This document shows, in pieces, positions 7,236-10,200 of a stretch of DNA of 64,000 nt. Each line of letters begins with the position of its first letter. Positions within the stretch are counted from its first letter, which is position 1. This stretch comes from Escherichia coli. GTDB lineage: Bacteria > Pseudomonadota > Gammaproteobacteria > Enterobacterales > Enterobacteriaceae. Location of the stretch: assembly GCF_029227855.1 (NCBI RefSeq), contig NZ_CP074356.1. One strand, given 5' to 3'. A program made the position numbers.

Positions 7236-10200
7236 TGATTGTTTTACCGCCTGATGGGCGAAGAGAAAGAACGAGTAAAAGGTCGGTTTAACCGGCCTTT
7301 TTATTTTGTGATATGTATGAAGTACTTTGGAAGTATAAATCCATAACTTGTCTCGATGTAGATATACTGCACAACTTGTTTACAGTATGAGCAAACAATA
7401 ATTATCATTAAAATTCTTCTTGACCGTTTTACTCCAACTCCCTATAGTAGCGCCCCGTTGCCACCCATGAGGTTTGGCAGCAAAACAATTTGGTGAGGTG
7501 TCCGAGTGGCTGAAGGAGCACGCCTGGAAAGTGTGTATACGGCAACGTATCGGGGGTTCGAATCCCCCCCTCACCGCCATATTCAAAGAAGAGCTCGTAC
7601 GAAAGTACGAGTTTTTTTTCGCATTTTATCTGCCTGTACGGCAGTGAACGGTATAAAAATCGAGTTTTTCTTTCGGTTGGCTTTCTAAGCTGCCTGTACG
7701 GCAGTGAACTCAAATACTACACGTTTAGTCCGTTATTAATAAAGCAAAACCATCTCATTTTCCTGCTACCACCCTTTTTTATCCTTACCTTCCCGCAGCA
7801 CTAATTATCAACAACTTACCATCATCATCAAAAAAAGGGTCTGAACCTCCTCCACCCCATAAATAAATATCCTCCGGCATAGCCGGAGGTTTTTCAAATG
7901 CGCCTATAAGGCTCTCTTACCAGCCGCGCCCTAACAGGCGCACACGATCTGACATTTGCATCCAACTTCGTTACTTACGGCCCGTAAACGGGCTGCCCGG
8001 ATAGGGAATCGATAACTGCTCTCCCATTTTATCCTCTTCAAGCTGGTGCTTTATGTAATCCTGTATCTTCGCCGTGTTCTTACCCACTGTATCGACGTAG
8101 TACCCTCTGCACCAGAACTCCCTGTTCCTGTATTTGAATTTCAAATCACCAAACTGCTCGTAAAGCATCAGACTGCTTTTCCCTTTCAGATATCCCATAA
8201 ACCCGGATACGCTCATTTTGGGCGGGATCTCCACAAGCATATGGATATGATCTGCACAGCATTCAGCTTCCAGAATCCGTACGCTTTTCCACTCACACAG
8301 CTTTCTCAAAATACTGCCTATTGCTCTACGCTTCTCTCTGTAGAACACCTGTCTTCGGTATTTTGGCGCAAAAACTATGTGATATTTACAGTTCCATCGG
8401 GTGTGCGCTAAGCTCTTTTCGTTCCCCATTGGGACCCCCTTTTGATTTCTTGTTTGACACTTGCAGTTGCCAGACCGCAAAGTGTTTTAACAAATCAAAA
8501 GGGGTTTTAATAACTGGCTCAAAGCTGAAAGCTTTCCGGAACCCCCAGCCTAGCTGGGGGTTTTCTGTGCACAAAAAAGTCCGTAACCTCTTTCGAGATT
8601 ACGGACTTCACCAACCTACCTGACAATCAGATTAATGCGCTGCTTCCGCCTTGTGCTTTTGTGCACTCTGGAATCCATAAGTCAGCTCATTTTTCTCTTT
8701 ATCCAGCGCAACCGTCACCTGACCGCCGTCCACCAGCGAACCAAACAACAGTTCGTTGGCGAGCGGTTTTTTCAGGTTGTCCTGGATGACACGCGCCATC
8801 GGACGTGCGCCCATTGCCCGGTCGTAACCTTTCTCGGCCAGCCAGTTACGCGCTTCCTGGCTCACTTCCAGAGAAACACCTTTCTGATCCAACTGAACCT
8901 GCAACTCGACGATGAATTTATCCACTACCTGATGGATCACTTCGGTGGAGAGATGATCGAACCAGATAATGTTGTCGAGACGGTTACGAAACTCCGGCGT
9001 AAAGATCTTCTTGATCTCTTCCATCGCATCGGTGCTGTTGTCCTGGTGGATAAGACCAATCGATTTACGCTCAGTTTCTCGTACCCCAGCGTTGGTGGTC
9101 ATCACCAATACCACGTTACGGAAGTCCGCTTTGCGTCCGTTGTTATCGGTCAGCGTACCGTTGTCCATCACCTGCAACAGAATATTGAACACGTCCGGGT
9201 GCGCTTTCTCGATTTCGTCCAGCAGCAGCACCGCATGTGGATGCTTGATGACCGCATCAGTCAGCAAACCGCCCTGATCAAAACCAACGTATCCCGGAGG
9301 CGCACCAATCAGACGGCTGACGGTATGGCGTTCCATATACTCGGACATATCAAAGCGCAGAAGCTCAATGCCCAACGCTTTCGAAAGCTGTACCGTCACC
9401 TCTGTTTTCCCGACCCCGGTAGGGCCTGCAAACAGGAACGAACCGACCGGTTTATGTTCGTGACCTAAACCTGCACGCGCCATCTTAATGGCTTCAGTCA
9501 GCGCCTCAATGGCTTTATCCTGACCGAAGACCAGCATTTTCAGGCGATCGCCGAGGTTTTTCAGGGTATCGCGGTCACTCTGCGAAACACTCTTCTCTGG
9601 AATGCGCGCAATACGGGCCACCACGGACTCAATATCCGCCACATTAACGGTTTTCTTGCGTTTGCTTACCGGCATCAGGCGTGCGCGAGCGCCCGCTTCG
9701 TCGATAACATCAATGGCTTTATCCGGCAGATGACGATCGTTAATGTATTTCACCGCCAGCTCTACCGCTGCACGCACCGCTTTTGCGGTATAACGCACGT
9801 CGTGGTGCGCTTCATACTTCGGTTTCAGGCCATTGATGATTTGAACAGTTTCTTCGATCGACGGTTCAGTAATATCAATTTTCTGGAAGCGACGCGCCAG
9901 AGCACGGTCTTTCTCGAAAATGTTGCTGAACTCCTGATAGGTTGTCGAACCAATTACGCGAATTTTACCGCTGGAGAGCAGCGGTTTGATCAGGTTAGCC
10001 GCATCGACCTGGCCACCAGAGGCTGCACCCGCACCGATAATGGTGTGGATCTCATCAATAAACAGGATGCTGTTAGTATCCTGCTCCAGCTGCTTGAGCA
10101 ACGCTTTAAAACGTTTTTCAAAGTCGCCGCGATATTTTGTGCCCGCTAACAGAGAACCGATATCGAGAGAGTAAATCGTACAGTCAGCCATCACTTCCGG

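What the first reader, a model, noticed from the sequence alone, without database searches (positions are those of the whole stretch)
7630..7709. Two perfect 20-bp direct repeats, each with an internal inverted repeat, downstream of serW
CTGCCTGTACGGCAGTGAAC occurs at 7630..7649 and again at 7690..7709, exactly 60 bp apart. Each copy contains the inverted repeat CTGCC-N5-GGCAG. Perfect 20-mers with dyad symmetry spaced at about six helical turns are typical of paired binding sites for a dimeric DNA-binding protein (regulator or recombinase arm site), or of a duplicated structured RNA motif. They sit between the serW terminator and the IS200 end, near a tRNA gene of the kind frequently used as an integration site.
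Basis: seen in the sequence. Interest (0 to 1): 0.35.

Follow-up and report, generated by a model that had tools for sequence, protein, structure and literature searches.

The report
Orphan type I-F CRISPR mini-array
The two 20-bp repeats are the conserved cores of a two-repeat, one-spacer CRISPR array left without its cas genes, a feature of most E. coli that has already been described; its single spacer matches csy3, a gene of the missing system.

Summary
Read on the minus strand they form a minimal type I-F CRISPR array. It has a canonical 28-nt repeat (7709..7682, GTTCACTGCCGTACAGGCAGCTTAGAAA; Rfam CRISPR-DR4, 50.1 bits), a 32-nt spacer (7681..7650) and a terminal repeat with a degenerate last 8 nt (7649..7622). 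That gives the 60-bp period. The leader (7710-7863) matches the leader of active I-F arrays. The window holds no I-F cas genes, so the array is orphan.

The spacer matches the coding strand of csy3 in E. coli strains that carry I-F. The match is 30/32 nt, all mismatches are synonymous, and the canonical CC PAM is present. K-12 has the same locus with an anti-cas1 spacer. In a survey of 11 orphan arrays, 7 of 8 distinct spacers hit cas1f, cas3f or csy3.

This is the "CRISPR3 / CRISPR4.1" anti-cas orphan array already described by Touchon & Rocha 2010 and Almendros et al. 2016. It is thought to turn an incoming I-F system against its own genes. The locus occurs in 5413 of 5426 complete E. coli genomes and this spacer in 392. 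An IS200 sits in the distal leader in only 6 genomes. The feature is already known and of low interest.

The parts
7682..7709 (-). Leader-proximal CRISPR repeat, canonical type I-F 28-mer GTTCACTGCCGTACAGGCAGCTTAGAAA.
   Evidence: Rfam RF01317 CRISPR-DR4 at 50.1 bits (gathering score 35), E 2.9e-10. Identical to the repeats of both arrays flanking the I-F cas operon in strain N44. Hairpin of -8.6 kcal/mol.
7650..7681 (-). Single 32-nt spacer GCCAACCGAAAGAAAAACTCGATTTTTATACC, an anti-csy3 spacer.
   Evidence: Matches the csy3 coding strand in N44 (L001 5937..5906, mismatches at positions 2 and 23) and in B7A (L003 9863-9894, mismatches at positions 26 and 29). Both protospacers are preceded by CC. 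All mismatches are synonymous (peptide RQPKEKLDFYT). 31/32 match in csy3 of E. whittamii and Escherichia sp. E1V33.
7622..7649 (-). Terminal degenerate repeat GTTCACTGCCGTACAGGCAGATAAAATG. The first 20 nt are intact and the last 8 nt have diverged.
   Evidence: Rfam CRISPR-DR4 at 29.7 bits, below the gathering score. The same ...ATAAAATG terminal repeat is found in all 11 orphan arrays surveyed.
7710..7863 (-). Proximal CRISPR leader (154 nt, A+T-rich), with a promoter-like site TTGATG-16 nt-GATAAT at 7831..7804.
   Evidence: Aligns along its length with the leaders of orphan arrays and of the active arrays of N44 and B7A. The GATAAT hexamer is invariant in 13 of 13 sequences. Promoter scan (one site found, 1.2 expected by chance, so weak evidence on its own).
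7864..8572 (-). IS200 copy (about 709 bp, tnpA on the minus strand) inserted in the distal leader. It is not part of the array.
   Evidence: The K-12 empty site aligns to window 7703-7863 and 8574-8653. STnc490 (IS200 5' region RNA) scores 144.6 bits at 8562..8439. The junction is present in only 6 of 5426 genomes.
8574..8631 (-). Rest of the original clpA-array intergenic region, now displaced by IS200. It includes the clpA terminator hairpin at 8577-8608.
   Evidence: 97.5% identical to K-12 downstream of clpA. Inverted repeat I6.
7586..7619 (+). serW intrinsic terminator. Its hairpin also reads as a terminator-like site on the minus strand (7611..7594), directly downstream of the array.
   Evidence: Terminator scan on both strands.
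7492..7579 (+). serW, tRNA-Ser(GGA), the flanking gene.
   Evidence: ARAGORN. Rfam tRNA. K-12 annotation.

Best explanation
The two 20-mers are the conserved 5' parts of two 28-nt type I-F CRISPR repeats. Together with the 32 nt between them they form a minimal orphan CRISPR array on the minus strand: leader, repeat, spacer, degenerate terminal repeat. It lies in the clpA-serW intergenic region, where I-F-positive E. coli carry cas1f-cas3f-csy1-csy2-csy3-cas6f. It is the array called CRISPR3 by Touchon & Rocha and CRISPR4.1 by the Mojica group. Shown here: the array anatomy, the homology of its repeats and leader to active arrays, the absence of I-F cas genes from the window, and that the spacer is a copy of a csy3 segment that lies next to the canonical CC PAM. 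Inferred from general knowledge of I-F biochemistry and from published experiments on other orphan arrays at this locus: the array is transcribed from its leader and is inert on its own. If an I-F cas operon enters the cell, Cas6f would cut each repeat at the 3' base of the hairpin. That would yield one 60-nt crRNA made of the 8-nt handle CUUAGAAA from repeat 1, the 32-nt spacer and the 20-nt hairpin from repeat 2. The only degenerate part of the array, the last 8 nt of repeat 2, is not part of that crRNA. The incoming Csy complex would then be guided to the incoming csy3 gene and Cas3f would destroy the carrier DNA, blocking establishment of I-F (anti-cas immunity).
For: Rfam CRISPR-DR4 hits on the minus strand. 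28+32 = 60-nt period. Repeats identical to those of arrays flanking the I-F cas genes at the same locus in N44 and B7A. Leader conserved with active arrays. Repeat hairpins fold as expected. No I-F Cas protein is encoded in the 64-kb window; the only csy3 tblastn hit is the spacer itself. The spacer matches csy3 with a CC PAM and only synonymous mismatches. K-12 has the same array with an anti-cas1f spacer and a CC PAM. 7 of 8 distinct spacers in 11 orphan arrays match cas1f, cas3f or csy3, with a CC PAM in at least one of the two reference loci; for one spacer the N44 protospacer is preceded by TC and the B7A one by CC. 401 genomes have this spacer directly joined to the terminal repeat and the serW terminator, which leaves no room for a cas operon there. 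csy3 is present in only 241 of 5426 genomes. Literature: PAM and constitutive activity of E. coli I-F (PMC3506596); anti-CRISPR hypothesis (PMC2886076); native orphan arrays interfere with plasmids carrying I-F cas genes and trigger priming (Almendros 2016 as summarised in PMC8616872).
Against: No perfect protospacer was found. The best are 31/32 with the mismatch at seed position 2 (E. whittamii, E1V33; also N44-type with a second mismatch) and 30/32 with PAM-distal mismatches (B7A-type, 39 of 241 csy3-positive genomes). Direct interference may therefore be allele-dependent. Transcription of this array was not measured, and the IS200 154 bp upstream could alter it. No Escherichia-like csy3 occurs on any PLSDB plasmid, so the supposed incoming vehicle is undocumented. 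The interference experiments were done on other orphan arrays, and I could not read the primary paper.
Confidence: 0.75

Rival explanations
1. Inert fossil. The array is only the scar of a past self-targeting event: acquisition of an anti-csy3 spacer made the I-F system autoimmune and selected for deletion of the cas operon. It persists by inertia and has no present selected role.
For: Only one spacer and a degenerate terminal repeat remain. No perfect target is known. No enterobacterial plasmid carries a matching csy3. Some genomes have lost the array altogether through IS1 insertion with no obvious consequence (L016). The loss-by-autoimmunity idea is in the literature (Diez-Villasenor 2010 as cited in PMC2886076, and PMC8616872).
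Against: The repeat hairpins, the 5' handle and the leader are all intact, although nothing in the cell uses them. The locus is kept in 5413 of 5426 genomes. Touchon & Rocha argue that spacers are normally lost quickly and that these are unusually conserved. Orphan arrays were reported to be expressed and active when Cas proteins are supplied. This rival disputes selection, not molecular identity.
Confidence: 0.22
2. One reading: the two dyad-symmetric 20-mers are DNA binding sites for a dimeric regulator, or arm-type or attachment sites of a recombinase that uses serW as an integration site.
For: There is dyad symmetry and the spacing is a whole number of helical turns. serW is used by islands in some strains; a tyrosine recombinase lies next to the array in L013.
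Against: The sequence is the I-F CRISPR repeat. The 60-bp spacing is the I-F repeat-plus-spacer period. The intervening 32 nt differs between strains and matches cas genes, unlike a fixed operator spacer. The repeats are the same in strains with and without an island at serW. No integrase flanks them in the window.
Confidence: 0.01
3. A member of a dispersed intergenic repeat family of E. coli (REP/BIME-like, because of the GTGAAC and the small hairpin), or a local duplication artefact.
For: It is a short G+C-rich hairpin in an intergenic region between convergent genes, where REP elements typically sit.
Against: There are only two copies in 64 kb even with 3 mismatches. No Rfam or other repeat family hit apart from CRISPR-DR4. 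The sequence between the copies is not duplicated.
Confidence: 0.01

Closest known systems
Orphan anti-cas CRISPR array of E. coli, called CRISPR3 by Touchon & Rocha 2010 (PMC2886076) and 'orphan CRISPR4 arrays' by Almendros et al. 2016 (Nat Microbiol 1:16081; summarised in PMC8616872)
   Same: Same locus (clpA-serW/infA), same 28-nt repeat, same degenerate terminal repeat, same leader, no I-F cas genes, and a single spacer that matches an I-F cas gene next to the PAM.
   Different: The spacer here targets csy3. Touchon & Rocha list targets in Cas1, Cas3 and Csy2 only, and I could not check whether Almendros 2016 lists an anti-csy3 spacer. This copy also has an IS200 in the distal leader, which is rare (6 of 5426 genomes).
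Active type I-F CRISPR-Cas of E. coli (LF82, ED1a, N44, B7A): arrays CRISPR4.1 and CRISPR4.2 flanking cas1f-cas3f-csy1-csy2-csy3-cas6f (Almendros 2012, PMC3506596)
   Same: Identical repeat, homologous leader, 32-nt spacers, 60-nt period, CC (GG) PAM, same chromosomal site.
   Different: The window has no cas genes and no second array between infA and serW; about 700 bp present there in N44 is replaced by about 108 bp. It has one spacer instead of 8 to about 20. Its terminal repeat ends in ATAAAATG and abuts the serW terminator, whereas in N44 it ends in TATTCACA and abuts cas1f.
Pseudomonas aeruginosa / Yersinia type I-F repeat and the Csy4 (Cas6f) hairpin substrate (from memory: Haurwitz et al. 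2010)
   Same: 28-nt repeat with a 5-bp stem and a 5-nt loop. Cleavage at the 3' base of the stem gives an 8-nt 5' handle and a 20-nt 3' hairpin, which explains why exactly 20 nt are conserved in the terminal repeat.
   Different: The repeat differs at two positions from the P. aeruginosa repeat as I recall it; I did not test this here. No Cas6f is present to process it in this genome segment.
Mini-CRISPR arrays and solitary repeat units of viruses and other mobile elements (Faure 2019 and Medvedeva 2019, as cited in PMC8616872)
   Same: A single spacer flanked by one complete and one degenerate repeat, relying on Cas proteins supplied in trans, and used against a competitor.
   Different: This array is chromosomal, vertically inherited at a fixed core-genome site, and targets the cas genes themselves rather than a rival virus.

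Membership tests
Type I-F CRISPR array (CRISPR-4 repeat class; Rfam RF01317 CRISPR-DR4) | 28-nt repeat matching the family model or consensus | tested here: met
   Repeat 1 scores 50.1 bits against a gathering score of 35. Repeat 2 scores 29.7 bits, below the threshold, because its 3' end is degenerate. Both are identical over 20 nt, and repeat 1 over 28 nt, to repeats of cas-associated arrays.
Type I-F CRISPR array (CRISPR-4 repeat class; Rfam RF01317 CRISPR-DR4) | Regularly spaced repeats separated by unique spacers of about 32 nt (60-nt period) | tested here: met
   28 + 32 = 60. This is the minimal case, with only two repeats and one spacer.
Type I-F CRISPR array (CRISPR-4 repeat class; Rfam RF01317 CRISPR-DR4) | Repeat RNA forms the Cas6f-type hairpin (5-bp stem, 5-nt loop, at positions 6-20) | tested here: met
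   The minimum-free-energy structure of both repeats is .....(((((.....)))))........ at -8.6 kcal/mol. Binding by Cas6f was not tested.
Type I-F CRISPR array (CRISPR-4 repeat class; Rfam RF01317 CRISPR-DR4) | A+T-rich leader upstream of the first repeat, homologous to leaders of active arrays | tested here: met
   Alignment of 13 leaders, including the I-F-positive strains N44 and B7A.
Type I-F CRISPR array (CRISPR-4 repeat class; Rfam RF01317 CRISPR-DR4) | Adjacent cognate cas genes (this defines a complete CRISPR-Cas locus, not an array) | tested here: not met
   tblastn of six I-F Cas proteins against the window gave nothing better than E = 0.03, and that hit is the spacer itself. The array abuts the serW terminator. 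It is therefore an orphan array.
Type I-F CRISPR array (CRISPR-4 repeat class; Rfam RF01317 CRISPR-DR4) | Transcription and processing into crRNA | not testable with these tools
   Only a promoter-like site in the leader. No expression data.
Anti-cas orphan arrays of E. coli (Touchon & Rocha 2010; Almendros 2016) | Located between clpA and serW/infA in a strain lacking I-F cas genes at that site | tested here: met
   401 genomes have the same spacer, terminal repeat and serW terminator joined directly.
Anti-cas orphan arrays of E. coli (Touchon & Rocha 2010; Almendros 2016) | Spacer matches an I-F cas gene of related strains next to the I-F PAM | tested here: met
   csy3, 30/32 to 31/32 identity, CC PAM, synonymous mismatches only.
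Anti-cas orphan arrays of E. coli (Touchon & Rocha 2010; Almendros 2016) | Shared degenerate terminal repeat (...ATAAAATG) across cas-less strains | tested here: met
   11 of 11 orphan arrays. Touchon & Rocha also note conservation of the terminal repeat.
Anti-cas orphan arrays of E. coli (Touchon & Rocha 2010; Almendros 2016) | Interference against DNA carrying I-F cas genes, and primed adaptation | not testable with these tools
   Reported for other orphan arrays. Not tested for the anti-csy3 spacer.
   The 32-nt interval differs between strains and matches cas genes. No integrase is next to the array in the window. The repeats are the same whether or not an island sits at serW.
Dispersed intergenic repeats (REP/BIME-like) | Many copies scattered through the genome | tested here: not met
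   Two copies in 64 kb with up to 3 mismatches. A median of one place per genome for the region.

The most novel reading that the evidence does not exclude
The anti-csy3 spacer may be an anti-cas guide that has not been explicitly described; the open-access literature I could read lists only Cas1, Cas3 and Csy2 targets. It has no perfect protospacer in the two csy3 allele groups of complete E. coli genomes that I checked (one representative each) or in the 100,044 species-representative genomes. That would imply it was taken from an unsampled Escherichia I-F lineage. Together with the cas1- and cas3-targeting variants, it would mean that different E. coli lineages independently keep exactly one anti-cas spacer under selection. 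A more speculative reading is that the orphan transcript, which ends in the shared serW terminator, has a Cas-independent role.
Probability: 0.15. Interest if true: 0.3.

Novelty: already known. Interest (0 to 1): 0.12.

Why it matters
It does not change what is known. It assigns an unannotated 88-bp element; RefSeq marks nothing at this site in K-12 or in the cas-less strains examined. It is a described class: a cas-less CRISPR array that appears to protect E. coli against re-acquiring the type I-F system. For annotating this window, the serW-clpA interval should be labelled as an orphan I-F CRISPR array with an anti-csy3 spacer, with an IS200 in its leader. The interval should not be treated as a candidate regulator or att site. 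The modest added value is quantitative. The locus is in 99.8% of 5426 complete genomes, the csy3-targeting variant in about 7%, and csy3 itself in 4.4%. In addition, the degenerate part of the terminal repeat is exactly the part a mature crRNA would not need.

Tried and rejected
1. A REP/BIME-like or other dispersed repeat: rejected, because only two copies exist in the window with up to 3 mismatches.

2. An att or arm site linked to serW: rejected. No integrase lies nearby, and the repeats are identical in strains with and without islands at serW.

3. A perfect protospacer. A degenerate-pattern scan of one genome per species found only three csy3 genes, the best at 31/32.

4. Escherichia-type csy3 on plasmids. 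There is none in PLSDB; the best hits are about 66-71% identical, from Acinetobacter, Psychrobacter and others.

5. The primary paper, Almendros 2016. It is not held, so its claims come from a review by the same group. Two literature searches failed on term syntax.

6. A target for the 25-nt pseudo-spacer of the degenerate mini-array seen between cas3f and csy1 in I-F-positive strains. No site with CC plus at least 10 nt was found in the two loci.

7. The promoter scan gives only one consensus-like site against 1.2 expected by chance. The promoter assignment therefore rests mainly on conservation and remains tentative.

Full report
**Observation**

The 20-mer CTGCCTGTACGGCAGTGAAC is present at 7630-7649 and 7690-7709, exactly 60 bp apart. 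There is no further copy in the 64-kb window even with three mismatches, and none is expected by chance. The interval lies between serW (tRNA-Ser GGA, 7492-7579), with its terminator at 7586-7619, and an IS200 copy.

**What it is**

An Rfam scan of 6800-9000 matched the type I-F CRISPR repeat model CRISPR-DR4 (RF01317) twice on the minus strand. The hit at 7709..7682 scores 50.1 bits against a gathering score of 35. The hit at 7649..7622 scores 29.7 bits, below threshold.

Read on the minus strand, the region has this anatomy:
- A+T-rich leader.
- Repeat 1: GTTCACTGCCGTACAGGCAGCTTAGAAA.
- A 32-nt spacer: GCCAACCGAAAGAAAAACTCGATTTTTATACC.
- Repeat 2: GTTCACTGCCGTACAGGCAGATAAAATG.
- The serW terminator hairpin, which also scans as a terminator-like site on this strand.

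The 60-bp spacing is the I-F period of 28 + 32. The dyad CTGCC-N5-GGCAG is the repeat hairpin: a 5-bp stem and 5-nt loop at -8.6 kcal/mol in both copies.

**Context in other genomes**

The 281 bp from 7580 to 7860 has a counterpart in 5413 of 5426 complete E. coli genomes, almost always once per genome. K-12 MG1655 has clpA, the two repeats, serW and infA, with nothing annotated at the array.

In strain N44 the same site holds cas1f-cas3f-csy1-csy2-csy3-cas6f between serW and clpA. A 9-repeat array lies next to clpA and a 7-repeat array lies between infA and serW, and all use the identical repeat. Strain B7A is organised the same way.

The window's leader aligns with the leaders of both orphan and cas-associated arrays. 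That includes an invariant GATAAT, which belongs to the one promoter-like site found, TTGATG-16 nt-GATAAT at 7831..7804. tblastn of the six I-F Cas proteins against the whole window finds nothing except the spacer itself. The array is therefore orphan.

**The spacer**

- It matches the coding strand of csy3 in N44, with mismatches at positions 2 and 23.
- It matches csy3 in B7A, with mismatches at positions 26 and 29 and a perfect PAM-proximal 25 nt.
- Both protospacers are preceded by CC. This is the E. coli I-F PAM, described as GG on the other strand at the leader-proximal side in PMC3506596.
- All differences are synonymous third-codon changes within RQPKEKLDFYT.
- A degenerate-pattern scan of one genome per species found only Escherichia csy3 genes. 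The best are 31/32, in E. whittamii and Escherichia sp. E1V33.

The K-12 spacer at the same position is different. It matches cas1f with two mismatches and a CC PAM.

I surveyed 11 orphan arrays drawn across the identity range and found eight distinct spacers. Seven match cas1f, cas3f or csy3, several perfectly. A CC PAM is present in at least one of the two reference cas loci for each; for GGAACAATCT... the N44 site is preceded by TC and the B7A site by CC. One spacer has no match in the two cas loci. All 11 arrays share the terminal repeat ending in ATAAAATG.

**Counts among 5426 complete E. coli genomes**

| Feature | Genomes |
|---|---|
| Locus region (7580-7860) | 5413 |
| This anti-csy3 spacer | 392 |
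| Spacer joined directly to the terminal repeat and serW terminator (no room for a cas operon) | 401 |
| csy3 gene (always chromosomal; two allele groups, 201 at ≥99% and 39 at about 94.5% to N44) | 241 |
| IS200 at this exact site | 6 |

**Mechanism**

The anatomy, the homology and the cas-gene match with its PAM are shown here. The following is inferred from general I-F biochemistry (my own knowledge of Csy4/Cas6f). Cas6f cuts at the 3' base of each repeat hairpin. The single mature crRNA would therefore consist of the last 8 nt of repeat 1 (CUUAGAAA, intact), the spacer, and the first 20 nt of repeat 2 (intact). The only degenerate part of the array, the last 8 nt of repeat 2, is not needed.

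With no Cas proteins the transcript is inert. If an I-F operon entered, its own Csy complex would be guided to csy3. The literature describes exactly this:
- Touchon & Rocha 2010 proposed that these short arrays are an "anti-CRISPR" against the Ypest (I-F) cas genes (PMC2886076).
- A review from the Mojica group reports that native orphan arrays are constitutively expressed, interfere with plasmids carrying a full I-F cas set and trigger primed adaptation (Almendros et al. 2016, via PMC8616872).

**Caveats**

- No perfect protospacer is known for this spacer.
- The seed-position mismatch against the common N44-type allele would probably allow only priming, not direct interference.
- Expression of this array is untested.
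- No Escherichia-like csy3 is found on PLSDB plasmids.
- The array could be a neutral scar of autoimmunity-driven cas loss. That is the main rival, and it disputes selection rather than identity.

**IS200**

Aligning the K-12 empty site places the insertion at 7864-8572. That is 154 bp upstream of repeat 1 and just inside the clpA terminator hairpin (8577-8608). The conserved proximal leader and the candidate promoter are left intact. The exact junction occurs in only 6 genomes, so it is a recent, lineage-specific event unrelated to the repeats.

**Verdict**

Its main interpretation, protein-binding or recombinase sites, is not supported. Its alternative, a duplicated structured RNA motif, is correct in spirit. 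The element is a well-described feature of E. coli: an orphan type I-F CRISPR array with an anti-cas spacer. The novelty class is "already known". The only possible increment is that the csy3-targeting variant is not listed in the open-access sources I could read. Interest is low.

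Noticed in passing
L001 (E. coli N44) about 9285-9363 on the + strand; L003 (B7A) about 6440-6520 on the - strand; not in the window: In I-F-positive strains the cas3f-csy1 intergenic region carries a degenerate crRNA-like mini-array on the strand opposite to the cas genes. It reads: repeat-like CCCAAACTGCCTTGAGCAG+CTTAGAAA, a 25-nt pseudo-spacer TAGAGGTATCTCCGGATACGGACTT, then GTAAACTGCCGTACAGGCAG+CTCGCGCC. The hairpins and the 5' handle are kept in both allele groups. From memory it resembles repeat-derived regulatory RNAs of the CreA/CreR type. 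A simple search found no target with CC plus at least 10 nt in the two loci.
   Followed up: partly
window 7864-8572: An IS200 copy (tnpA on the minus strand; Rfam STnc490 at 8562..8439, 144.6 bits) is inserted in the distal CRISPR leader, immediately after the clpA terminator hairpin. The exact junction is present in only 6 of 5426 complete E. coli genomes. The closest genome (JNEC-KY178) has 24 matching places for the junction query, consistent with an IS200-rich lineage.
   Followed up: partly
L013 (E. coli RIVM_C036204) spacer 1; L012; L016: One orphan-array spacer (GCACACGTCGAGCTGGTGGGGATTAATGCTGG) has no match in either reference I-F cas locus. In L013 a tyrosine recombinase gene lies where serW should be, and in L012 an 'RtT sRNA' annotation does, which suggests islands or rearrangements at serW. 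In L016 an IS1 has removed the array altogether.
   Followed up: no
window 7303-7410 compared with L001 4256-4953: Between infA and serW the window and K-12 have about 108 bp, where I-F-positive N44 has about 700 bp holding the second array (CRISPR4.2) and its leader. The two flanks align at 96-98%. The I-F module therefore differs from the cas-less state by two separate indels on either side of serW, not by one deletion.
   Followed up: partly
window 7710-7863 and homologous leaders: The leader exists in at least two clearly diverged haplotypes in its distal half (for example GGAGGTTCAGACCCTTTTTTTGATGATGATGG against AACGGTGAAAACCCTATTTTTGGAGGTGAAGG). These do not track which spacer is present. 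This divergence, together with the different spacers, accounts for the 80-90% identity of 4146 genomes to the 281-bp query, and it suggests recombination at this locus.
   Followed up: no
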